Virus record (IMG/VR): IMGVR_UViG_3300009147_000001
Coordinates: 46,164-110,163 of that record
Origin: a virus
Length of the DNA stretch: 64,000 bases
Direction: 5' to 3' (one strand)
Position 1 is the stretch's first letter. Each line of letters begins with the position of its first letter. Positions 54,779 through 64,000 of the stretch are shown piece by piece. Both the position numbers and the translations under genes were made by a program. The notes under the pieces were generated by a model, which saw only the letters and a program-made list of their open reading frames with translations, did no database searches and was not told where the DNA came from.

Positions 54779-54861
54779 CGAGGTTGCGCGATCCAACCAA
54801 TAAAAGTTCGGTGAAGGACAGGTGAAGGACACACTATAACAAATGTCCATGATCGCTTAAT

Positions 54862-54933
54862 TCTCGCATAGTTTAATAGGCAGAACGCTGCGCTCTGGAC
54901 GCAGAGGTTATAGTTCGAATCTATGTGCGAGAG
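54862..54933 (+). tRNA. tRNA-Gln(CTG)
   Basis: Full cloverleaf, AC arm CTGCG-CTCTGGA-CGCAG. Confidence 0.9.
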
Positions 54934-54935
54934 CT

Positions 54936-55006
54936 GATGTGGGTCGATAGTAATTGGTTATCTTCTTATAACAGGTTAGGCCGATTGCTGATAACATATC
55001 CACATC
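54936..55006 (+). ncRNA. Y RNA-like scaffold E1 (short cargo, CTTATAA loop)
   Basis: GATGTGG/CCACATC stem, GGGTCGA, GGTTAT, CATATCC. Confidence 0.75.
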
Positions 55007-55016
55007 GTGAGAGTTG

Positions 55017-55085
55017 GTTCGGGTCGAAGATAATCGGTTATCTCACTGCAAATGACACGCCGATCATCAATCATTATATCCGAAC
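55017..55085 (+). ncRNA. Y RNA-like scaffold E2 (Cys-GCA anticodon-like hairpin cargo)
   Basis: GTTCGG/CCGAAC stem, GGGTCGAAG, cargo TCA-CTGCAAA-TGA. Confidence 0.78.
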
Positions 55086-55424
55086 GACCACGTCTACATC
55101 CAGTTGAGAAGCTAAGCACACACGTACTCCGGTGTAGACATATATGTTCCCATCCATACGGCCGAGAATACAACATGTCCCTCCCGATGGGAACTAAAGC
55201 TTTCTCCATCCTACACGAGCGCGATCACCAAGAAGGGACCGATGGAGAAGGAAATTCAGCACGGTCATGGCAGAGATTCATCGAACTACTATCGTCCCAT
55301 CGCATGACCGTGATGGTGGCCTTATCAAATAGGGTGTTTATTATCCAAGCCACGCCCATATGGTCACTGTAGTATGTGGTTGTGTCATACTTGACGCAAT
55401 AATCATAGTTCAACCACACAACCA

Positions 55425-55630
55425 CATACTTTATCATGATCCTGTCACCAACCGAACGTGGCCCAACCCACCCATACACGATCATGATAAAGTATGATAA
55501 TAATTACGCCAAAGACCAATCAGTAAACTATGTCATGCACGTGTAATTATTATCATACTTTATCATGATCACATCATCTGCGGAGCGTAAACCAAAACCA
55601 TTCCATGCGATCATGATAAAGTATGATAAT
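55425..55630. repeat. Four 17-bp cores (CATACTTTATCATGATC) in alternating orientation
   Basis: 55425-55441 fwd, 55480-55496 rev, 55554-55570 fwd, 55609-55625 rev. Confidence 0.92.
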
Positions 55631-55702
55631 GATTTCACCAAGTCTTGTGCATACACCAAACGCAGCCGGTGACACTGTTATTCGTAAGGGAGAACGTGGA
55701 AC

Positions 55703-55846
55703 ATGAGCAACGACGAGGAACGTCTCAAGAAGGTTATTGCGGATAAGGTGGCAGAGGATAAACGTCGAGCCGCAGAAAAACTAGCTGCGGATCAGGCTGA
55801 GCAACGGCTGCATGAGGAAGAACGTCGTCAGCGCAACAAAGAGTAG
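55703..55846 (+). CDS. 47-aa charged helical protein
   Basis: Own translation MSNDEERLKKVIADKVAEDKRRAAEK...; GGGAG RBS. Confidence 0.6.
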   Translation: MSNDEERLKKVIADKVAEDKRRAAEKLAADQAEQRLHEEERRQRNKE

Positions 55847-55855
55847 TTCGCGGTT

Positions 55856-55929
55856 AGCGGGATGGCGCAGGTCGGTAGCGCGCGGGGCTCATAACCCCGA
55901 GGTCATGGGTTCGAATCCCATTCCCGCAA
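55856..55929 (+). tRNA. tRNA-fMet(CAT)
   Basis: 1:72 mismatch, GGG/CCC anticodon stem, CTCATAA loop. Confidence 0.9.
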
Positions 55930-56095
55930 CGTGACGCATAGCTTGGGTTTCGGTTTTTGGTGACGATATCCGAGGCAATCAGCGCATTTATATTGCGGTA
56001 AACCTAGATTGTTGAAATTATGAGGAACCATGTTTAATATCAGCGTGGTATCGTGGACGCTGGTGTGTGGCGCAAACTACGTAAGAAGGTGAGGT

Positions 56096-56416
56096 ATTAA
56101 ACCTGATAGACGTAGACGTCGAGAACAATTAGAAGGTGGCGCTAGCGTCACCAGGGCACAGCTTGATCGTATATATGTCAGAGACAACGGAATCTGTCAG
56201 ATATGCCACGAGCCGTGCGCACGTGAGGATGCCTCGCGTGATCACATCAAGGAAGTGAGATACTGTTCTCGTCAAGAAGCACGAAGTGACAAAAATGTCC
56301 AACTCGCACACAAAGAATGTAATGGACGTCGAGAACGACAATACTTTGATGAATTAGCAACAAAAGGTATGGACCAACTCTTACGGGAGTTGGGCGATCG
56401 GTATCGTAAATACTAG
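56096..56416 (+). CDS. HNH endonuclease, apparent ATT start
   Basis: Own translation ...RDNGICQICHEP...SRDHIKE...NVQLAHKECN...; in-frame TGA directly upstream. Confidence 0.75.
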   Translation: MKPDRRRRREQLEGGASVTRAQLDRIYVRDNGICQICHEPCAREDASRDHIKEVRYCSRQEARSDKNVQLAHKECNGRRERQYFDELATKGMDQLLRELGDRYRKY

Positions 56417-56503
56417 ATGTGGAGGATCGCATGACGGAGCCAACCACACCGGTGGAGCCAACACCAGACGAGCCGGAAAGTGGTCCGGACGAGTAAGACA
56501 CGA

Positions 56504-56637
56504 GTTGTTTTGGGTCGAATGGTATCGGTTATCATATTATCAGTTCGATTCTGAATACTCGCTCCTCACGGATGGCGAGTACTTACACCTAGTGTAAGGG
56601 AATTGTTACCGATAGCAGCTCACATATCCAAAACAAC
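56504..56637 (+). ncRNA. Y RNA-like scaffold E3 (YrlA-type T arm + closed acceptor cargo)
   Basis: 10-bp outer stem; TCAG-TTCGATT-CTGA then TACTCGCT/GGCGAGTA hairpin. Confidence 0.8.
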
Positions 56638-56707
56638 CACAGTATGTTATAGGATCAACTCCGAGACGTGTCAACTACACAAGACATGGGCCATCCTATA
56701 ACATAAC

Positions 56708-56782
56708 GTCTTCGTAGCCCAATATGGTAGAGGCACAGCCTTGAGGTGGCTGACAGTGCAGGTTCGAACCCTGTCGAAGGCA
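56708..56782 (+). tRNA. tRNA-Leu(GAG), short variable loop
   Basis: CAGCC-TTGAGGT-GGCTG. Confidence 0.85.
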
Positions 56783-56876
56783 CGCGGACATAAAAAAGGT
56801 TGGCAGTGACACAAAAGTCCGACACGTGGATCGTATGCCACCGCTGTTGACAAAAAATAACGTGGAACTGCCACTA

Positions 56877-56924
56877 TGGTTTCCTCATTCCTTGGTTTCC
56901 TCATTCCTTGGTTTCCTCATTCCT
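56877..56924. repeat. 16-bp tandem repeat x3 (TGGTTTCCTCATTCCT)
   Basis: Seen directly. Confidence 0.9.
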
Positions 56925-56950
56925 GAAAAATGAGGTGGTGGACTGGGTTG

Positions 56951-57023
56951 GATTCGGGTCGGAAGATATTGGTTATCCTACCACTTTGGAATCAATCCGA
57001 TATCATTATTACACATCCGAATC
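56951..57023 (+). ncRNA. Y RNA-like scaffold E4 (short cargo containing CTTTGGA)
   Basis: GATTCGG/CCGAATC and GATATTGG/CCGATATC stems. Confidence 0.75.
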
Positions 57024-57069
57024 TATCATATGTTTCCTCGTTTTCTTAAAACGAGGTGGTGGAGGCGGC

Positions 57070-57145
57070 AGGTTCGGGTCGAACGTAGATCGGTTATCTT
57101 TGAAAGAAGAGTAAATGCCCGATCTACATCAATATATCCGAACCT
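57070..57145 (+). ncRNA. Y RNA-like scaffold E5 (short cargo)
   Basis: AGGTTCGG/CCGAACCT and GTAGATCGG/CCGATCTAC stems. Confidence 0.78.
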
Positions 57146-57177
57146 TAACAATAAGTGAATGCACGATATCCGAGTAA

Positions 57178-57252
57178 TTGGGTCGAAGATAATTGGTTAT
57201 CCACCCGAGCTAGTCTAGCGCATGGACCAATTATCATAGTGTGTTCTTCCGA
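57178..57252 (+). ncRNA. Y RNA-like scaffold E6 (degenerate 3' motif)
   Basis: GGGTCGAAG, GATAATTGG/CCAATTATC stem, GGTTAT. Confidence 0.65.
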
Positions 57253-57329
57253 CGAGAGCTAGACGCGAAAGGAGTGATCATCATGATCTACCGACGTTAG
57301 CCCACGGTGGGCTGACCGGAAAGGTCACG

Positions 57330-57611
57330 ATGTCACGCACCGATGTTCATCGACCATGGCACGTTCAGATTAATGATCCGTACAATCGCCACATTCTGTA
57401 CCGATATCCTGGTCTTTATAGTGAAATGATGGTAACATCATTCAAGAATATCGGTTGTGGCTGTGCCTTATGTACAGGTACGTTCTTCCGTCGACACGCG
57501 CGTAGACAAGAGCGAGTGCAATGGAGGACGGCTAAACGGGACATACTTAAATGCCAGGCCGCTGACCGTGAGCATATAGATGTACCGCTGATCCGCGGTA
57601 ATGCCTGGTAA
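57330..57611 (+). CDS. Basic hypothetical protein with CGCxxC motif
   Basis: MSRTD.HRP...CGCALC; GAAAGG RBS. Confidence 0.65.
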   Translation: MSRTDVHRPWHVQINDPYNRHILYRYPGLYSEMMVTSFKNIGCGCALCTGTFFRRHARRQERVQWRTAKRDILKCQAADREHIDVPLIRGNAW

Positions 57612-57619
57612 CTTATTTG

Positions 57620-57800
57620 ATTCGGGTCGAAGACACGTTGATTATCGGATCCTGGGGAATCATACCCCAACGCTAGGTTTATTGTATAGTGGGAGATTAA
57701 GACATCGTCCTGAAAAACCACGACAATAAACTGCCTTTCTCTCCTTGCGGCATGGAAAAGTGACGCGGGAAATATTCGACTGTCAATCATACATCCGAAT
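57620..57800 (+). ncRNA. Y RNA-like scaffold E7 (~130-nt structured cargo)
   Basis: ATTCGG/CCGAAT stem, GGGTCGAAG, GATTAT variant, TACATCC; internal GTTTATTGT/ACAATAAAC stem. Confidence 0.68.
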
Positions 57801-57817
57801 TTCATAAAAGGAGTACT

Positions 57818-58453
57818 ATGACGACCCATGTCATTATGGTTGTTGACAAGTCTGGTTCAATGTATCATCTTACCAGCGATATTATTGGTGGGTTCAATCA
57901 ATACATAGATGAACTGAAAGCCCAATCGGATATTGAGTTTCGGTTTACCGTAACCTTATTTGATACGACTTACACATCACTGTGTGTCAATACTCCCATT
58001 GCTGAGGTACCAAAACTTACTCGGGAAAACTATAAGGCTTCGGGTAATACCGCTCTTATCGATGCCGTGGGCAAATCTATACGAGATTTTGATGTGGCCA
58101 CGCCAGAACTAGCCGACAACGACAAAGTACTTCTCGTGGTTCAGACGGATGGTTATGAAAATTCATCTACTGAATATAAGAACACTGATATCGAGAAGAT
58201 GATTTCTGAGCGCGAAGCTACTGGCAAATGGGGATTCGTTTTCCTTGGCGCTGGACCAGATGTCTGGGATCACGCGCATAGAATGGGTTTCAATACTGTA
58301 TCCTCGACAACGCAATCTGGTTCGGCTACCCGCACGCGGTATGGTAAGATGTCCGGTGCTACTATAGCTATGGCTAGCAGTGGGGCACCGGTAGCAGAGT
58401 CCTCCATTGATTGGATGGAACAGGTCGTCGAAGACGACCCTGACGGCAAGTGA
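57818..58453 (+). CDS. Stand-alone vWA domain protein
   Basis: MIDAS DKSGS, GNTALIDA, QTDGYEN, FLGA. Confidence 0.9.
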   Translation: MTTHVIMVVDKSGSMYHLTSDIIGGFNQYIDELKAQSDIEFRFTVTLFDTTYTSLCVNTPIAEVPKLTRENYKASGNTALIDAVGKSIRDFDVATPELADNDKVLLVVQTDGYENSSTEYKNTDIEKMISEREATGKWGFVFLGAGPDVWDHAHRMGFNTVSSTTQSGSATRTRYGKMSGATIAMASSGAPVAESSIDWMEQVVEDDPDGK

Positions 58454-58460
58454 GGCATAC

Positions 58461-58736
58461 ATGGACTATATTGCAGCAGGTAGCCCGTCGGACACCCTGC
58501 TGCAATATGGTGCCATCGGTGCCATTGCGTTGTTGGCATTATTAGCAGTATACAAGTTGTTTCAACGACAAATACAGCAACATGAACGTGACATTGCCAG
58601 GGCTGATAAGGCCGAGGAGCAACTAGCTACACTGAATACTCTCATTCGAGATCAGCTAGTCGTTCAATTAACACGTGCCACCGACTCTATCAGTCGAGTC
58701 GCTGAATTACTCAGAGACGAAGCACGAGGTCGGTAA
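58461..58736 (+). CDS. Single-TM coiled-coil membrane protein (holin-like)
   Basis: QYGAIGAIALLALLAVY followed by coiled coil. Confidence 0.5.
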   Translation: MDYIAAGSPSDTLLQYGAIGAIALLALLAVYKLFQRQIQQHERDIARADKAEEQLATLNTLIRDQLVVQLTRATDSISRVAELLRDEARGR

Positions 58737-58887
58737 ATGATCAAGGATCGGGTCAAGACCGAGGATATTATAGAAGAGTCTACCGATGCTATCAATATGC
58801 TCAAACGGTTGGTGAGCCGATTAGAAGTGTATACAGATCAGTTAGAGCGGGAATTGGCTCTCAAGATCGAATCACAGGAGGACTCGA

Positions 58888-59403
58888 ATGGAAAATGACG
58901 GGCTTGCTGAGCAAGCCCGAGAGTTACGGTCGGGGATTAATGAGTTAAATCTAGCGATAATAGCATTAAGTAACAGAATTGCCCTCTCTGAAGAACTAGC
59001 CAACCGATTAAAGCTGATAGTGCGTGGACTAATTGCTAGTTTTATATGTGGCATTATCGTGGTTGGCTATCTTATAGCAGAGAAGGTGGGCGATGACCGA
59101 TATGTTAAATGTCAAGCACACTTCAACGAAATTTCTAGTATTCGCGACAGAATTATCAATGAAGTATCTGACGATGAGCGTAAGGCTGAACGTGCGCGTA
59201 GTAGCGCATTAGACGCCACATTCTTAGATCCATCTTTACTTAAGCCGGTTGATAAAAGGACTCCGGCTGATACGAAGCGCGTAATTGATCTTTTTATCGC
59301 TTATCGTGAAGCAGCAGAGCGACTCAGAATAGAAGAAAAGAAGGCAGACGAGGCGAGGGCGGCAAATCCTATTCCACCATTACCGTCTGATCTCTGTGGG
59401 TAG
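58888..59403 (+). CDS. Membrane-anchored helical protein
   Basis: One TM; GGAGG RBS. Confidence 0.55.
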   Translation: MENDGLAEQARELRSGINELNLAIIALSNRIALSEELANRLKLIVRGLIASFICGIIVVGYLIAEKVGDDRYVKCQAHFNEISSIRDRIINEVSDDERKAERARSSALDATFLDPSLLKPVDKRTPADTKRVIDLFIAYREAAERLRIEEKKADEARAANPIPPLPSDLCG

Positions 59404-59407
59404 ACAG

Positions 59408-59545
59408 TCCTTCGGGTCGAACGTGATTTGGTTATCTCCTTTTAAGAGAGTGGTTGCAGGTTCGAGTCCTGTCAGGCCCACAATGGGTCTGTAGCTCAAT
59501 GGGCAGAGCACTAAAAACCCGAATTACATCAATATATCTGAAGGA
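59408..59545 (+). ncRNA. Scaffold E8 carrying circularly permuted tRNA-Lys(TTT)
   Basis: 3' half 59436-59480 precedes 5' half 59485-59512. Confidence 0.85.
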
Positions 59546-59935
59546 ACTATATCATGAAACATGATCTTATCATGGAAGAATATCCGTACTTCTCCACTCC
59601 CATGGTGTACGTTGCTATCTGCTCCTGCGGGAGATATGAATCTGGTAATCGGACTAGTCGAATAGACGCAGAGAAATCGTGGCTTGAACACAAGCGAGCA
59701 AAAGAGTCTCCTCATGATTCATGAACAATACTGCTACGGTGCACATACCGATGATCTCACGTGTGAAGAAGTACGAGAACTACGGCAGAGTGCTACCAAT
59801 GACATACGATACTGCCATTACAATCCACGTTCGGCCTATCATAGGTTTGCCGGGGAGAATCCATCTCCGACCGATAGTTGTACGTATAATGGATGTTCAG
59901 TAACGTGGGCAGAGTTTGCTGAATTATAGATGTCT

Positions 59936-60004
59936 GGTACGGGTCGGATTGTTTCGGTTATCTAATGGGTAGAGTTAAACCGATACCTTTTTCATATCCG
60001 TACC
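59936..60004 (+). ncRNA. Y RNA-like scaffold E9 (D-loop-like cargo CTAATGGGTAGAG)
   Basis: GGTACGG/CCGTACC stem, GGTTAT, CATATCC. Confidence 0.72.
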
Positions 60005-60066
60005 GCTTAACCTCCCCGGGAGCGGAGGGAACAGGATGGAATAGTCTAGAAAGCTATTCCATTCTT

Positions 60067-60139
60067 GCCGACGTGCGCTAACGGCAAAGCGATGCGATTT
60101 AGGATTGCATGAATGGGGGTTCGACTCCCTCCGTCGGTA
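60067..60139 (+). tRNA. tRNA-Leu(TAG), short variable loop
   Basis: TGCGA-TTTAGGA-TTGCA. Confidence 0.85.
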
Positions 60140-60193
60140 CGCTAGCCTGGTCATTGCCTTACCAGCAACCAGGTCCACCCCACCAGGCAGCAT

Positions 60194-60266
60194 GCCCTTG
60201 TAGCTCAACGGATAGAGCGCTAGATTACGGATCTAGGTGTTGCAGGTTCGAATCCTGTCAAGGGTA
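60194..60266 (+). tRNA. tRNA-Arg(ACG)
   Basis: CTAGA-TTACGGA-TCTAG. Confidence 0.92.
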
Positions 60267-60267
60267 C

Positions 60268-60405
60268 GTGGGTAAAACAACAGGTGCATGTCCAACATGC
60301 GGCAAGAACCATTCACCATTTTGTGGTAGTAAACCAGATAGCCAAAAACCACAACCAGGACCATGCGCCAAATGTGGACGACTGCATTATCCACCATGTG
60401 ATTAG
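60268..60405 (+). CDS. 45-aa protein with two CxxCxxxHxxxC zinc-knuckle-like motifs
   Basis: CPTCGKNHSPFC and CAKCGRLHYPPC; GTG start right after tRNA-Arg. Confidence 0.55.
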   Translation: MGKTTGACPTCGKNHSPFCGSKPDSQKPQPGPCAKCGRLHYPPCD

Positions 60406-60412
60406 TTTATAT

Positions 60413-60553
60413 GTGAACGGGTCGACAGTGATTGGTTATCATCAAGCTCATAACTTGAAGGTGCAGGTTCGACTCCTGCCTCCGCTACCATGGCGGAGTG
60501 GTGTAATGGCAGCATAATAAAAGTATCCGATTGCGACCAATACATCCGTTCAT
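60413..60553 (+). ncRNA. Scaffold E10 carrying circularly permuted tRNA(CAT)
   Basis: 3' half 60440-60490 (with CCA) precedes 5' half 60492-60514. Confidence 0.85.
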
Positions 60554-60557
60554 CAAT

Positions 60558-60631
60558 GCGGGGACCGAAAATCAGCCTAGCGATGATGATTAGGTAGGTA
60601 TGCTTGAGAGGTTCAATTCCTCTCCCCCGCT
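60558..60631 (+). ncRNA. Degenerate tRNA-like element (acceptor + T arm, no D stem)
   Basis: GCGGGG/CCCCGC and GAGAGG-TTCAATT-CCTCTC. Confidence 0.5.
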
Positions 60632-60972
60632 CAATGGTGTCGAGTACGCATCTGTATGGCAACGTCGCTGCACACGTTAGTTCATATCGAACGAGCCTTG
60701 CCGCGTGCAGCCGAGGTCTCGTTTAGTACTCACCATACGTGGGATATAGGCGTTAACGAATCTAAAAGGTACGTTACAGCCATCGAGCAGGTTCGAAGGT
60801 GTGGCCATGATCCGGGACCTCCTTTCACCCATATGGGGAGCCACGCCTGCGCCTATATCCTATGAATAGGTCAGTGCTACGACTGTTAATCGTCAACACT
60901 GTCAATCGGATGCCAGTCCGAGTGCCCCAATAGTACAATAACTACTGGCATAGTTATTGGTGCGGGGTATCT

Positions 60973-61047
60973 AGGAGTGTAGCTCAGAGGTCAGAGCGCG
61001 AGGTCCGCATAACTTCGAGGTCATAGGTTCGAATCCTATCATTCCTA
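60973..61047 (+). tRNA. tRNA-like gene with 9-nt anticodon loop (TCCGCATAA)
   Basis: Canonical acceptor, D and T arms; AC stem CGAGG/CTTCG. Confidence 0.75.
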
Positions 61048-61075
61048 CGCTAATGTAGTTTCTTACCAAGGAGAT

Positions 61076-61306
61076 GTGTTGAATATCGAGCCCAATGGCC
61101 TTAGAGTAGATCTGTCTCAGGCTGCGTGGCAGAAGTCTTCAAAGTCAGGTCCGTATTCAGATAATTGCGTGGAAGTGGCTTTTGTCGACGGTGCCATTGC
61201 CATGCGGCACTCGAAGAATCCGACGGGTCCAACACTCATTTTCACACAGGGTGAATGGGACGCCTTCATAGCAGGAGCCCGTGATGGAGAGTTCGACCTG
61301 GCATAA
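61076..61306 (+). CDS. DUF397 protein
   Basis: WQKSSKS..NCVEVA..MRHSKNP..L.F..EWDAF. Confidence 0.92.
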   Translation: MLNIEPNGLRVDLSQAAWQKSSKSGPYSDNCVEVAFVDGAIAMRHSKNPTGPTLIFTQGEWDAFIAGARDGEFDLA

Positions 61307-61577
61307 GAGTAGTCATAGTGCCGTCACTGATCAATGCCTCGAAGTACAGTGGCATAAAAGCAGTCATAGCCAACAAGGTAGTGGTAACTGTTTAGAGACA
61401 ACTTTTAAAAAGAGCAGCTACAGTTCTATCCACAATTGTCTTGAAGCAGCTCTGCCAGATGGTACTATCCTCGTACGAGATTCCAAGAATCCTAATGGTG
61501 GAATATTGGAGTTTTCTCCGCAATCATGGGTGAACTTCTTGGGAGGTGTGAGGAATGATGAGTTCAATCTGGCGTAA
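61281..61577 (+). CDS. DUF397 protein with triplicated N-terminal motif
   Basis: Three (W/F)xKSSxS..CLE units then VRDSKNP. Confidence 0.9.
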   Translation: MMESSTWHKSSHSAVTDQCLEVQWHKSSHSQQGSGNCLETTFKKSSYSSIHNCLEAALPDGTILVRDSKNPNGGILEFSPQSWVNFLGGVRNDEFNLA

Positions 61578-61791
61578 AAGTACCTACTGTTCTACTAGCT
61601 GCGGTGAGTGTCTGGAAGCAAGCTTTCAGAAAAGTAGTTACAGTCAAGGTAACGGCAATTGCTTAGAAGCTGCTCTACCTGATGGGACAGTGCTCGTCAG
61701 AGACTCCAAGAATGTCGACGGTGGCGTTCTGGAATTTTCTCCACGTTCCTGGAATGACTTTCTTTATGCAATAAAGAACAACGAGTTCTGA
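61555..61791 (+). CDS. DUF397 protein with duplicated N-terminal motif
   Basis: Two (W/F)xKS(S/T)Y..CLE units then VRDSKN. Confidence 0.9.
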   Translation: MMSSIWRKSTYCSTSCGECLEASFQKSSYSQGNGNCLEAALPDGTVLVRDSKNVDGGVLEFSPRSWNDFLYAIKNNEF

Positions 61792-61796
61792 GTAAT

Positions 61797-61932
61797 TCAT
61801 GACGGGTCGATCGGATGACGGTTATTAGTGGGGTAGTGTAAGAATAACACACCAGATTCCAACTCTGGAAATGAACAGTGAGATGCTGTTCCCCTACTGC
61901 CATCCGTTATTCACCGAATATATCCGTCATGA
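61797..61932 (+). ncRNA. Scaffold E11 enclosing an unpermuted tRNA-Trp
   Basis: TCATGACGG/CCGTCATGA and GGATGACGG/CCGTTATTC stems. Confidence 0.8.
61827..61902 (+). tRNA. tRNA-Trp(CCA), non-canonical D and T loops, encoded CCA
   Basis: AGTGGGG/CCCTACT, CCAGA-TTCCAAC-TCTGG, G73 + CCA. Confidence 0.75.
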
Positions 61933-61935
61933 CCT

Positions 61936-62006
61936 GCCGTTGTAGCTTAGTGGTAAAGCCTCTGTTTTCCAAACAGATGACGAGGGTTCGATTCCCTTCA
62001 ACGGTT
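61936..62006 (+). tRNA. tRNA-Gly(TCC)
   Basis: TCTGT-TTTCCAA-ACAGA, U73. Confidence 0.9.
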
Positions 62007-62130
62007 CGGGGAGTCCAATATAGAAGTGCGCAGATTACCCCCGTTATCAGTGCCACTGTATTGGACTCTCTGATGAGAACCTAAATGAAACGTTAGGAAG
62101 AGGCGTTGACAGGGCATTTAGGTTCTCTTC

Positions 62131-62202
62131 GTCGATGTGGTGTAAGGGTTGCACGACACCACGCCAAGGTGTAGGCTGTGGGTTCGAATCCCATCATCGG
62201 CT
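62131..62202 (+). tRNA. tRNA-Gly(GCC), unusual C33
   Basis: ACACC-ACGCCAA-GGTGT, U73. Confidence 0.85.
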
Positions 62203-62446
62203 CGGCGCTAGGGTGGTGTGCACACCACAGACCAGATATGGGAGCACCTGACCTAGCCAGTGTGCTTCGTTGATCCTTAGTGTGTTGAATCGAATGTGAG
62301 TTCCACATTCTGTGACACTACTAAGGTTCCGTCCACCTCCGATTCGGCTCACGGTCGGAATAAAGGTAATGATGTGGTGGTATTAGCGCAAATACCACTA
62401 TACGGACACTCCTGGTGTACACTGGAGTCAAAGAAGTGAGCCACCG

Positions 62447-62519
62447 GGAGCCATAGACTAAAAGGAAGGTCTCCGCTCTTTCAAAGCGGAAGGTACGGGT
62501 TCAAGCCCCGTTGGCTCTA
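62447..62519 (+). tRNA. tRNA-Glu(TTC)
   Basis: CCGCT-CTTTCAA-AGCGG. Confidence 0.88.
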
Positions 62520-62730
62520 CTGTCGAGTGGTGATTAGCTTAGTGTCAGCCGTCGTCATTGTTGGCCTCAAACGAGGCGCGTTAATTACCACTCGACCAAA
62601 ACGTCAGATAGCAACACGATGACTTCTCTCGGCCGAGTAAGTGGTGGGCGACTCCTATCCATGATCACGGGTTCATCCACTTCGGAGTGTTGCTATCTGA
62701 CCCATAGATACTCACAGACAGGACAAAGCC

Positions 62731-63096
62731 ATGACCAATACACTGTCAATGTATGACCGTCTAGGTGGACATGCCACCATGGTAGCTGTTGTCGACAAGC
62801 TCTACACTGCCATCCTGGCTGATACCAATCTGGACCACTACTTTACTCATGTGGACATGGCTAAGCTGAAGCGGCATCAGGCATTGATGATTGGTCAAGT
62901 GCTTGGTGGTCCTGTCTCGTTCGAACTCGATGCACTCAATCGCGCGCATAAAGATCTTAATATTAGCAATTCGGATTACTGGTTGGTCAGTGGTCACCTG
63001 TTTAGTGTACTAACCGAATTTAAAGTTGATCAAGATATACTTGATCACGTATTTAGCACTCTATGTGCGATAAGAGGTAGAGTAATAAATGGCTAA
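62731..63096 (+). CDS. Group I truncated haemoglobin (trHbN/GlbN-like)
   Basis: YDRLGG, B10 Tyr (KLY), CD1 Phe (HYF), LGGP, proximal His (RAH). Confidence 0.88.
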   Translation: MTNTLSMYDRLGGHATMVAVVDKLYTAILADTNLDHYFTHVDMAKLKRHQALMIGQVLGGPVSFELDALNRAHKDLNISNSDYWLVSGHLFSVLTEFKVDQDILDHVFSTLCAIRGRVING

Positions 63097-63298
63097 AAAC
63101 GAAGATAAGCTACCTCCGAAGGATTCCGGCGCTGCCGCCCAACGTGCGGAGCGCAAACGTGCAGCCGCTGAAAGAGCAGAAAAGATAGCTAAGGAAGAAA
63201 AGGATGCAGCCGCCGAGAAAAGCAGAAGAGATATGCGTTCCGATGAAGTAGCTAGACAGGCGGCCATTGACCGAGCACGACGTCAGGGAAAATATTAG
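63089..63298 (+). CDS. Charged helical small protein (paralogue of 63316)
   Basis: PKDS..AA...RARRQGK shared. Confidence 0.65.
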   Translation: MAKNEDKLPPKDSGAAAQRAERKRAAAERAEKIAKEEKDAAAEKSRRDMRSDEVARQAAIDRARRQGKY

Positions 63299-63315
63299 TA
63301 AGGGAATGAAACAGC

Positions 63316-63516
63316 ATGGGTAATGATCCGAAAGACTCACGGGTAGCGGCTGAACGGGAACGACTGCGCCGGGAAGCAGCAGAAAGACAACGAAAAATTG
63401 CTGAACAAGAACAGCAAGAAAAAGCAAGGAAGTTACGAGAGGACCAGCGCAGGGTCGATGAGGAAAATAGACGGGCAGCCGTTGAACGGGCTCGCCGACA
63501 AGGCAAGAATAAATAG
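63316..63516 (+). CDS. Charged helical small protein
   Basis: E/R/K/Q-rich, ends RARRQGKNK. Confidence 0.65.
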   Translation: MGNDPKDSRVAAERERLRREAAERQRKIAEQEQQEKARKLREDQRRVDEENRRAAVERARRQGKNK

Positions 63517-63828
63517 AGTCAGCCGGAGTGCACGCACGATAGAATCGTGAGAACATGGCTACAGCCGAGAGGGTTTCTTAATGTGCATGGGACCTCGGCG
63601 CGAGTAAGAAGAGATCGCGGGACGGGCTGGGATCTCCACGGGACGGTAAGGGATGAGGCGTTCCACCATGGTAATAAGAAAATTACAAAGAGTCATCGCC
63701 AAGATCGACGACCACTGCCCTAAGTGTGGTGAAAAAGTAAATCCACTCTTACATGCAGCTTATCCTATGTTGTGTGCAGCAACTCCACTACTCGGTGGAA
63801 TGCGTGAACCACATAAGGATGAATTATA

Positions 63829-63939
63829 GTACGGGTCGACAATGTATCGGTTATTTGATGGTTCAACTCCTTCCACCCCGACCATCGGGGTGTAGCCTAA
63901 TTGGCAAAGGCTAACCGATCATTATTTCCATATCCGTAC
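63829..63939 (+). ncRNA. Scaffold E12, classical YrlA architecture (T arm, closed acceptor, D arm)
   Basis: GATGG-TTCAACT-CCTTC, CACCCCG-ACCAT-CGGGGTG, GCCT-AATTGGCAA-AGGC. Confidence 0.82.
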
Positions 63940-64000
63940 ACAAACGTAGATAAACTGAGGTTCGGATATAAAGGCTGGGGTAGTGGTCTCCCACCTGGAA

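What the first reader, a model, noticed from the sequence alone, without database searches (positions are those of the whole stretch)
60413..60553. Second permuted tRNA (CAU anticodon) with CCA encoded in the internal linker
Seen: GGTTAT|CA-TCAAG-CTCATAA-CTTGA-AGGT-GCAGG-TTCGACT-CCTGC-CTCCGCT-A-CCA-T-GGCGGAG-TG-GTGT-AATGGCA-GCA. Joining ...GGCAGCA to CATCAAG gives D stem GTGT/GCAC and a complete elongator Met/Ile2-type tRNA; the exact junction is ambiguous by 1 nt. The break again falls right after GGTTAT, but at a different tRNA position than in E8, so the scaffold rather than the tRNA may set the cut site. A one-nucleotide spacer separates the encoded CCA from +1, so an RNase P-type cut would nearly yield mature ends.
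Basis: partly seen in the sequence, partly recalled or inferred. Interest (0 to 1): 0.85.

Follow-up and report, generated by a model that had tools for sequence, protein, structure and literature searches.

The report
Phage Y RNA displaying a tRNA-Met
The "permuted tRNA" is real sequence, but it is the tRNA-shaped head of a Y RNA, a small RNA held by the phage's own Ro60 protein; it is unusual in carrying a whole tRNA-Met body (anticodon arm and CCA included), so it probably acts as a tethered tRNA look-alike, not a gene re-joined into a working tRNA.

Summary
Observation confirmed. Window 60413-60553 (+) holds, in order, an anticodon arm (loop CUCAUAA), AGGU, a T arm, acceptor 3' strand, A-CCA, one U, acceptor 5' strand, U8 and a D arm.

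The flanks are not a processing scaffold of unknown kind. The 110-kb phage encodes Ro60 (TROVE + Ro60-vWA) and 14 such scaffolds, all on the + strand, with strong stem covariation. The same scaffold lies next to Ro60 in Bxz1-type mycobacteriophages and Streptomyces BE-cluster phages.

Published work shows that M. smegmatis YrlA is cut by RNase P in its closed acceptor loop and ends in CCA. A cut between U60491 and G60492 is therefore plausible. Re-joining into a canonical tRNA is unlikely: I found no ligase or splicing endonuclease gene, and the phage has canonical tRNA-Met, Lys(UUU) and Ile(UAU).

What is new is the complete anticodon arm with elongator tRNA-Met acceptor identity, plus an encoded CCA. 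A second Ro60 phage has Y RNAs carrying whole tRNA-Glu- and tRNA-Arg-like bodies.

Verdict: new variant of a known kind.

The parts
60413..60422 (+). Outer stem (P1) 5' strand; pairs with 60544-60553
   Evidence: RNAfold MFE. All 13 paralogues measured have fully paired P1 with different sequences. Covariation counted.
60421..60428 (+). GUCGACAG, a one-mismatch version of the GNCGAAN0-1G motif proposed to contact Ro60/Rsr
   Evidence: Motif defined in PMC4201824. GGGTCG(A/G) is invariant in the 14 copies.
60428..60435 (+). Inner stem (P2) 5' strand GUGAUUGG
   Evidence: Pairs with CCGAUUGC at 60527-60534, which is the register homologous to the paralogues. RNAfold instead uses CCAAUAC at 60537-60543.
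60436..60439 (+).
   Evidence: PMC4201824 Fig. 2 legend. 10.1101/312249: the UA makes the kink in the solved YrlA. Invariant TTAT in 14 copies.
60442..60458 (+). Anticodon-arm-like hairpin in the 'V' position: 5-bp stem, 7-nt loop CUCAUAA, anticodon CAU at 60449-60451
   Evidence: The loop and the acceptor together match elongator tRNA-Met of Actinomycetota and Chloroflexota.
60459..60462 (+). Variable loop AGGU (U48 can pair with A15)
   Evidence: Sequence and ARAGORN cloverleaf.
60463..60479 (+). T arm GCAGG/UUCGACU/CCUGC
   Evidence: Rfam tRNA and YrlA alignments.
60480..60487 (+). Acceptor 3' strand CUCCGCU plus discriminator A73
60488..60491 (+). Genome-encoded CCA plus U(-1). With A73 this forms the 5-nt loop ACCAU that closes the acceptor stem. 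The predicted RNase P site is between 60491 and 60492.
   Evidence: Sequence. The phage's 29 canonical tRNA genes as a rule do not encode CCA. RNase P precedent in PMC4201824.
60492..60500 (+). Acceptor 5' strand GGCGGAG, then U8 G9
60501..60515 (+). D arm GUGU/AAUGGCA/GCAU (A14, G18 G19, A21 present)
   Evidence: Rfam YrlA alignment covers the T arm, acceptor hairpin and D arm.
60516..60526 (+). A-rich linker AAUAAAAGUAU. AUAA can pair with the UUAU hinge as a short 'anticodon-stem' equivalent.
   Evidence: Sequence. The same D-arm-plus-UAAAA linker is seen in the 59410 copy, in Karp, in G308 and in ScottMcG.
60527..60543 (+). Inner stem 3' strand (60527-34) and joining region GACCAAUAC, homologous to the AUCAAUAUAU of the paralogues
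60544..60553 (+). Outer stem 3' strand AUCCGUUCAU (the AUCC hallmark is shared by all copies)
54936..63940 (+). Context: array of 12 paralogous Y-RNA scaffolds in the tRNA cluster. Two more lie at genome 638-772 and 2394-2522. The Ro60 gene is at genome 6002-8071, outside the window.

Best explanation
The element is a YrlA-type Y RNA, one of 14 paralogues in this actinophage.

Inferred course of events:
- It is transcribed on the + strand together with the tRNA cluster.
- Its two ends pair into a two-part stem (P1, P2) carrying the GNCGAA-like motif, and this is the handle bound by the phage's own Ro60/Rsr ring protein.
- The UUAU hinge joins this handle to a tRNA-shaped head in YrlA order: T arm, loop-closed acceptor stem, then D arm.
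- Unlike described YrlAs, the position of the 'variable' stem-loop holds a full anticodon arm (CAU), the acceptor stem has elongator tRNA-Met identity, and the closing loop is A73-CCA-U.
- Host RNase P most likely cuts between U60491 and G60492. The result would be a nicked, two-piece Y RNA whose 5' piece ends in ...ACCA(U), giving a Ro60-tethered tRNA-Met look-alike with a free CCA end.
- This head then engages tRNA-binding factors or protects the RNA from exonucleases.

Shown here: the sequence anatomy, covariation of the stems, presence of the Ro60 gene, and homology of the scaffold to established phage Y RNAs.

Inferred: Ro60 binding, RNase P cleavage, and any downstream partner.
For: (1) Ro60 gene in the same genome, with TROVE at 118.9 bits and vWA_Ro60 at 204.2 bits.

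(2) There are 14 scaffold copies, all on the + strand, with invariant GGGTCG(A/G) and TTAT(C/T) and fully paired P1 and P2 of differing sequence.

(3) A covariance model built from the 5 short copies finds this element full length at 22.7 bits, E 0.004. On the 19-sequence alignment 90.9% of cells pair, against 77.5% in shuffles (0/500 reach the observed value) and 25-48% when the partners are slid. Eight pairs have changes on both sides.

(4) In Rfam, the whole element aligns end to end with nematode sbRNA, a Y-RNA homologue family (RF01656), at 20.4 bits. Its T/acceptor/D part aligns with YrlA (RF02553) at 18.5 bits. Sister copies score 39.4 and 29.1 bits on YrlA. The YrlA of a Bxz1-type mycobacteriophage scores only 36.1 bits, so sub-threshold scores are normal for phage YrlAs.

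(5) The same scaffold (GNCGA...CGGTTAYC...) lies next to Ro60 in ScottMcG, Karp, Samisti12 and two IMG/VR phages.

(6) Literature: the GNCGAAN0-1G and YUAY motifs, the T-AS-D order, and RNase P cleavage with a CCA end in M. smegmatis YrlA, which like this element has a 7-bp acceptor stem (PMC4201824). The solved YrlA tRNA-like domain is an L-shape (10.1101/312249).

(7) G-U pairs in the stems and the single-strand orientation fit an RNA-level structure, not a DNA-level one.
Against: - The element is below the Rfam gathering score for YrlA (18.5 against 69 bits).
- Its GNCGAA motif has one mismatch (GUCGAC).
- It lies about 9.3 kb from Ro60 on the circular or concatemer map, outside the 4-kb rule used by Chen et al.
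- No orthologue was found, so conservation of this particular copy could not be tested.
- The closed 5-nt loop may be a poorer RNase P substrate than a free 3' end.
Confidence: 0.8

Rival explanations
1. A true circularly permuted tRNA gene. The scaffold is excised, the 3' end of the D arm is ligated to the 5' end of the anticodon arm to give a circle, and RNase P plus 3' trimming then open the acceptor loop to give a working elongator tRNA-Met (or tRNA-Ile2 after lysidine formation).
For: The rotated sequence is a complete cloverleaf called tRNA-Met. The acceptor stem, A73 and the CUCAUAA loop equal those of cellular elongator tRNA-Met. CCA is encoded although the phage's normal tRNAs lack it. 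Wang et al. raised this possibility for YrlA RNAs in general (10.1101/312249).
Against: No splicing endonuclease, RtcB or Rnl2-type ligase family was detected in the complete genome. The Rnl1 search was uninformative. No bulge-helix-bulge motif is evident. The flanks are a conserved Ro60-binding stem shared with copies that carry no tRNA parts. Canonical tRNA-Met, tRNA-Ile(UAU) and tRNA-Lys(UUU) are already encoded. No bacterial pathway for such re-joining is known.
Confidence: 0.06
2. An anticodon-specific decoy or adaptor. The Y RNA presents a full tRNA-Met (and sister copies other tRNA identities) to sequester or recruit a host factor that reads the anticodon, such as a defence anticodon nuclease, a toxin RNase, a tRNA-modifying enzyme or MetRS. 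It might hand that factor or its products to Ro60-associated exonucleases. This refines the best explanation and does not replace it.
For: Whole anticodon arms with different anticodons recur in Y scaffolds: CAU and UUU here, CUC and GCG in a second Ro60 phage, plus a short Y RNA there that carries only an anticodon-stem-loop-like hairpin. Acceptor, D-loop and anticodon identities agree with each other (Met; the GGCC-containing D loop typical of tRNA-Glu, judged from memory, alongside the CUC anticodon). Y RNAs are known tethers between Ro60 and effector proteins (PMC4201824, PMC12135203).
Against: There is no direct evidence. Most related YrlA-like RNAs lack a good anticodon hairpin. The acceptor of the UUU copy did not match tRNA-Lys in 301 sampled Actinomycetes genomes. 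The host is unknown.
Confidence: 0.12
3. An evolutionary relic without a function of its own: a Y RNA recently built from (or recombined with) a tandem tRNA-Met pair, so that the anticodon arm and CCA are leftovers not yet eroded.
For: This fits the dimeric-tRNA origin model for YrlA (10.1101/312249). BE-cluster relatives have back-to-back tRNA-Met genes. The mycobacteriophage YrlA keeps only a 3-bp stem with a 7-nt loop followed by AGGUC in the same place.
Against: Every helix and tertiary-contact residue is intact. The two acceptor strands pair 7/7, which two different neighbouring tRNAs would not do. The module is not a recent copy of any of the phage's own tRNAs (at most 68% identity). The same architecture recurs with other anticodons in another phage.
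Confidence: 0.1
4. Not an RNA at all, but a DNA-level repeat (a recombination or replication site) that happens to enclose tRNA fragments.
For: There are many dispersed copies with inverted-repeat ends.
Against: The stems contain G-U pairs that would be A-C mismatches on the other strand. All copies share the orientation of the tRNA genes. There are covariation, a Ro60 gene, and homology to Y RNAs.
Confidence: 0.02

Closest known systems
YrlA-type bacterial and phage Y RNAs (Rfam RF02553; Chen et al. 2014, PMC4201824), especially M. smegmatis YrlA and the YrlA of Bxz1-type mycobacteriophages
   Same: Ro60/Rsr gene in the same genome. A 5'/3' stem with a GNCGAA-type motif and a YUAY hinge. A tRNA-like head in the order T arm, loop-closed acceptor stem, D arm, with tRNA tertiary residues. 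A 7-bp acceptor stem, as in the M. smegmatis RNA that RNase P cleaves. Location among tRNA genes.
   Different: It carries a complete 5-bp/7-nt anticodon arm (CAU) where YrlAs have at most a poorly conserved 'V' stem-loop; the solved YrlA 'lacks the anticodon loop' and a free CCA end. A full ACCA is encoded in the loop. The acceptor has tRNA-Met identity. An A-rich single-stranded linker lies between the D arm and the stem. It is one of 14 paralogues, not one to three. It is below the Rfam gathering score.
Circularly permuted tRNA genes of Cyanidioschyzon merolae, some green algae and Thermofilum pendens (Soma 2007; Maruyama 2010; Chan 2011, as cited in 10.1101/312249)
   Same: The 3' half precedes the 5' half. 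The acceptor stem is closed by a short linker that RNase P or RNase Z would open. The ends of the transcript pair with each other.
   Different: Those precursors form a bulge-helix-bulge motif cut by the archaeal/eukaryal splicing endonuclease, are ligated into a circle, and then become working tRNAs. Here the paired ends are a conserved Ro60-binding stem, no such endonuclease or ligase is detected, and the setting is a bacteriophage.
Metazoan Y RNAs and nematode stem-bulge RNAs (Rfam RF01656)
   Same: The stem with GGUC-CG-type 5' strand, followed by GGUUAUC at the top of the upper stem, aligns end to end.
   Different: The eukaryotic RNAs have no tRNA-like head. The scores here are sub-threshold (20-25 bits against a gathering score of 38).
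Two-piece (permuted) tmRNA
   Same: A permuted gene order in which the T-arm/acceptor-3'/CCA part precedes the acceptor-5' part. Processing yields a two-piece tRNA-like molecule with a chargeable CCA end.
   Different: There is no tag reading frame or pseudoknots. The Rfam permuted-tmRNA score is only 11.9 bits. ARAGORN calls no tmRNA.

Membership tests
YrlA-type Y RNA (RF02553) | A Ro60/Rsr (TROVE) protein is encoded in the same genome, on the same strand, and nearby | tested here: met
   TROVE + vWA_Ro60 ORF at genome 6002-8071 on the + strand. This copy is about 9.3 kb away on the circular map, beyond Chen's 4-kb rule. The paralogue at 2394 lies about 3.5 kb from the ORF start and the one at 638 about 5.2 kb.
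YrlA-type Y RNA (RF02553) | GNCGAAN0-1G motif near the 5' end, inside a stem formed by the 5' and 3' ends | tested here: met
   GUCGACAG, with one mismatch at position 6. Several paralogues match exactly (GUCGAAG, GUCGAACG, GUCGAAUG). P1 and P2 are paired in all copies measured.
YrlA-type Y RNA (RF02553) | Conserved YUAY after the inner stem | tested here: met
   UUAU at 60436-39, invariant in all 14 copies. The motif is described.
YrlA-type Y RNA (RF02553) | tRNA-like module in the order T arm, loop-closed acceptor stem, D arm, with tRNA tertiary residues | tested here: met
   (YrlA alignment of 60462-60515).
YrlA-type Y RNA (RF02553) | Score at or above the Rfam gathering threshold (69 bits) | tested here: not met
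   18.5 bits for this copy, and 39.4 and 29.1 for sister copies. The YrlA of a Bxz1-type mycobacteriophage also fails, at 36.1 bits, so the threshold does not fit phage members.
YrlA-type Y RNA (RF02553) | Physical binding by Ro60/Rsr | not testable with these tools
   Needs RIP or EMSA.
Circularly permuted tRNA gene (Cyanidioschyzon type) | 3' half upstream of 5' half; together they make a complete cloverleaf | tested here: met
   The rotated sequence is called tRNA-Met(cat) by ARAGORN. See the caveat from the shuffle control.
Circularly permuted tRNA gene (Cyanidioschyzon type) | Bulge-helix-bulge motif at the junction, and a splicing endonuclease to cut it | tested here: not met
   The flanks form the long P1/P2 Y stem. 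There is no tRNA_int_endo family in the phage. Such an enzyme has not been reported in bacteria.
Circularly permuted tRNA gene (Cyanidioschyzon type) | An RNA ligase to close the circle | tested here: inconclusive
   No RtcB or RNA_ligase (PF09414) in the phage. The T4 Rnl1 search matched nothing in its controls either, so it is uninformative. A host RtcB cannot be excluded because the host is unknown.
Circularly permuted tRNA gene (Cyanidioschyzon type) | A mature, joined tRNA is produced | not testable with these tools

The most novel reading that the evidence does not exclude
A subclass of phage Y RNAs are complete, identity-bearing tRNAs grafted onto a Ro60 handle: Met and Lys here, Glu and Arg in a second phage. 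After RNase P opens the acceptor loop they would become Ro60-tethered, possibly aminoacylatable, two-piece tRNAs. Their anticodon and acceptor would then be read by a specific partner: an aminoacyl-tRNA synthetase, a tRNA-modifying enzyme, or a host anticodon nuclease for which they act as decoys. In that case the phage would be using Ro60 RNPs to sense, mimic or protect particular tRNA species during infection.
Probability: 0.15. Interest if true: 0.85.

Novelty: new variant of a known kind. Interest (0 to 1): 0.55.

Why it matters
The partners and function of the tRNA-like head of bacterial and phage Y RNAs are still unknown. The published structure paper stresses that YrlA lacks an anticodon loop and a free CCA end, and only speculates that some YrlAs might be processed to look more like real tRNAs.

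This element, its Lys-type sister copy and the Glu/Arg-type copies in a second Ro60 phage are the closest things so far to that missing case. They are full cloverleaves with coherent tRNA identity, and here the CCA and a U(-1) sit exactly at the expected RNase P site.

That turns three questions into simple experiments on a defined RNA:
- Is the tRNA head cleaved?
- Is it charged?
- Is it read through its anticodon?

It also supplies a well-preserved intermediate for the proposal that Y RNAs arose from tandem tRNAs. For annotation, such elements should be labelled Y RNAs, not tRNA or pseudo-tRNA genes.

Tried and rejected
- Self-cleaving ribozyme or permuted group I intron as the scaffold: considered at first sight and dropped. 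No Rfam ribozyme or intron family matched at E up to 5 over 54-64 kb, and the scaffold proved to be a Y-RNA stem.
- Orthologue hunting:
  - The search for related loci with the neighbouring vWA protein found nothing.
  - With Ro60 it gave one distant contig.
  - Scaffold-anchored patterns in IMG/VR and in metagenome contigs gave no orthologue of this copy. They did reveal the G308 phage, and contig L141 with a CUCAUAA hairpin after YUAY.
- Genome-wide 'permuted tRNA' scans by rotation plus ARAGORN, or by a hand-written cloverleaf scanner, have many false positives at ordinary tandem tRNA genes, and ARAGORN tolerates a shuffled 5' half. I therefore did not use these counts as statistics.
- The acceptor of the UUU sister copy was not found with a UUU loop in 5 and then 301 Actinomycetes genomes.
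- Searches of the phage for RtcB, RNA_ligase, T4 Rnl1, Band_7, tRNA splicing endonuclease and CCA-adding enzyme were all negative. The Rnl1 control did not match anywhere, so that search is uninformative.
- Two reviews (PMC10870794, PMC6047535) are not held, and the supplementary tables of Chen 2014 are not held.
- Promoter and terminator scans around the element found nothing above the shuffle expectation.

Full report
**What is there**

After GGTTAT come:
- a 5-bp/7-nt hairpin with loop CUCAUAA
- AGGU
- a canonical T arm
- the acceptor 3' strand, A73 and CCA
- a single U
- the complementary acceptor 5' strand (7/7, with G1-U72)
- U8 G9
- a D arm with A14, G18 G19 and A21

ARAGORN and Rfam's gathering-level scan do not call it. 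Rotated, it is called tRNA-Met(cat), 74 nt.

A shuffle control shows that ARAGORN alone is lenient about the 5' half: 268 of 1000 shuffles were still called. The case for the 5' half therefore rests on the perfect acceptor pairing and the D-arm features. RNAfold's minimum-energy structure reproduces every helix, z = -2.8.

**What the 'scaffold' is**

The flanks belong to a repeat with 14 copies in the 110,163-bp phage record, which has a 123-bp terminal repeat. All copies are on the + strand. Twelve lie in the window between 54936 and 63940, and two more at genome 638 and 2394.

Each copy has this layout:
- an outer stem, then GGGTCG(A/G)
- an inner stem ending in GG, then TTAT(C/T)
- a variable insert of 22-134 nt
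- the inner stem's return strand, a joining region ending in AT, and the outer stem's return strand beginning with CC

Both stems are fully paired in every copy measured, although their sequences differ.

A covariance model made from the five short copies recovers this element full length (22.7 bits, E 0.004). It also finds copies in two Streptomyces phages. On the resulting alignment:
- 90.9% of cells pair, against 77.5% in shuffles (0 of 500 reach the observed value) and 25-48% when partners are slid
- eight pairs change on both sides

**Why it is a Y RNA**

- The phage encodes a Ro60 orthologue with TROVE and the Ro60-type vWA domain.
- Chen et al. 2014 (PMC4201824) define YrlA RNAs by four features: a GNCGAAN0-1G motif near the 5' end, a conserved YUAY, a tRNA-like module in the order T arm, closed acceptor stem ('AS'), D arm, and often a weak 'V' stem-loop before the T arm. 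Here GUCGACAG, UUAU and the T-AS-D order are all present.
- Rfam's permissive scan aligns the T/AS/D part to YrlA (18.5 bits), and sister copies at 39.4 and 29.1 bits.
- The whole element aligns end to end with the nematode Y-RNA homologue family RF01656, at 20.4 bits.
- These scores are below threshold. But the YrlA next to Ro60 in ScottMcG scores only 36.1 bits. ScottMcG is a Bxz1-type mycobacteriophage, the group in which phage YrlAs were first reported.
- ScottMcG has three tandem Y RNAs with the same GNCGA...CGGTTAYC... scaffold.
- The nearest Ro60 proteins (52-56% identity) are in Streptomyces BE-cluster phages. These carry two to six such scaffolds in their tRNA clusters.

In the solved Salmonella YrlA these UA residues make a kink (10.1101/312249).

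**How it probably works**

Shown so far are the anatomy, the covariation, the Ro60 gene and the homology.

By inference, the RNA is made with the tRNA cluster; no separate promoter or terminator stands out. The phage Ro60 would hold its stem, and the head would fold as a tRNA L-shape.

M. smegmatis YrlA, the one studied YrlA with a 7-bp acceptor stem, is cut by RNase P RNA in vitro at the tRNA +1 site. In vivo it exists as two Rsr-bound halves, the 5' half ending in CCA. This element has:
- the same 7-bp stem
- a U at -1 and an RCCA, both of which favour bacterial RNase P (established knowledge of RNase P substrate recognition; not tested here)
- the cut site between 60491 and 60492

The further step, excision of the scaffold and re-joining to a normal tRNA, is not:
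- No RtcB, RNA-ligase family or splicing endonuclease was detected in the complete genome.
- The scaffold is conserved in copies without any tRNA parts.
- The phage already has 29 canonical tRNAs, including Met(CAU), Lys(UUU) and Ile(UAU).

**What is unusual**

Described YrlAs lack an anticodon loop and a free CCA end. Here the 'V' position holds a perfect anticodon arm.

The module has a coherent identity. The rest of the body is only 65-77% identical.

CCA is encoded here and in the copy at 63829 (loop ACCAU in both; ACAAU at 59410), although the phage's ordinary tRNA genes as a rule do not encode CCA. The module is not a recent copy of any phage tRNA.

The architecture recurs:
- The copy at 59410 rotates to tRNA-Lys(UUU).
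- An unrelated-looking, complete 79.7-kb IMG/VR phage (G308) has Ro60 flanked by Y RNAs. Two of them rotate to tRNA-Glu(CUC) and tRNA-Arg(GCG), and a third, short one carries only an anticodon-stem-loop-like hairpin.
- The ScottMcG YrlA keeps a 3-bp stem, a 7-nt loop (AUUGCAA) and AGGUC at the same place.

This suggests that the 'V' stem-loop of phage YrlAs is an anticodon-arm equivalent, well preserved here and eroded elsewhere. It fits the tandem-tRNA origin proposed for Y RNAs. It leaves open whether the anticodon is read by anything.

**Limits**

- No orthologue of this particular copy was found, so selection on its anticodon arm and CCA cannot be shown.
- No expression data could be obtained.
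- The host is unknown.
- Whether the hairpin stacks as an anticodon arm or projects as a variable arm cannot be decided from sequence.

**Verdict**

The element is a Ro60-associated YrlA-type Y RNA, a new variant in that it carries a complete tRNA-Met body with encoded CCA.

I checked both independently.

Noticed in passing
window 61797-61932: One Y scaffold encloses an unpermuted tRNA-like sequence (Rfam tRNA 39.2 bits at 61827-61899; anticodon-loop CCA/Trp-like). It has a bulged acceptor 3' strand and a non-canonical T loop (UGAGAUG). The order D-anticodon-T recalls D. radiodurans Yrn1, not YrlA.
   Followed up: partly
genome 2394-2522 (L003:2394-2522), outside the window: A Y scaffold whose insert is a closed acceptor hairpin, D arm and anticodon-like arm followed by AGGUC, with no T arm. 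The Ro60 stem takes the place of the T arm.
   Followed up: partly
window 60558-60631: Directly downstream of the finding lies a tRNA-like fold with a 6-bp acceptor-type stem (GCGGGG/CCCCGC), a good T arm (GAGAGG/UUCAAUU/CCUCUC) and a central hairpin, but no D arm. RNAfold z = -2.5. Neither ARAGORN nor Rfam calls it.
   Followed up: partly
L278:8620-11882 (IMG/VR contig IMGVR_UViG_3300015371_000015, Ro60 at contig 54857-56400): A second Ro60 phage with about six Y RNAs around Ro60. Two carry complete permuted tRNA-Glu(CUC)- and tRNA-Arg(GCG)-like bodies, and one carries only an anticodon-stem-loop-like hairpin. ARAGORN finds no canonical tRNA in the 34 kb examined.
   Followed up: partly
window 60421-60440 and all other scaffold copies; L140: The scaffold's 5' strand (GGG-UC-GA...GGUUA-UC) has the same spacing and letters as the acceptor end, U8, D stem and D loop of ordinary tRNAs. 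Normal tRNA-Met genes matched the scaffold patterns, and the Rfam tRNA model aligns GAUUGGUUAUC as a D arm. This may be a trace of the proposed tRNA-dimer origin of Y RNAs, or it may be coincidence.
   Followed up: no
window 56875-56949 and 57028-57060: Two Y copies are each preceded by a hairpin followed by GGUGGUGGA. The first is preceded by three tandem copies of GGTTTCCTCATTCCTT. There are weak Rfam wcaG-RNA hits (25.4 and 20.4 bits; gathering score 42).
   Followed up: no
window 55370-55640: Long AT-rich inverted and direct repeats (ATCATGATAAAGTATGATAAT units) between the tRNA-Gln/Y copies and tRNA-Met. They give spurious plant-microRNA-precursor hits on both strands.
   Followed up: no
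window 61076-61791: Three consecutive small ORFs that are paralogues of each other. By eye they look like DUF397-type proteins typical of Streptomyces and relatives, which would fit an actinomycete host. I did not run them against Pfam.
   Followed up: no
L005 and L006 (Streptomyces phages Karp and Samisti12): In these annotated GenBank phages the Y-RNA-like scaffolds lie in unannotated gaps of the tRNA cluster upstream of the 'Ro-like RNA binding protein' gene (Karp record about 67.1-68.7 kb). RNA ligase, polynucleotide kinase and band-7 genes lie in the same cluster. The phage studied here lacks matches to the RNA-ligase and Band_7 families searched.
   Followed up: partly
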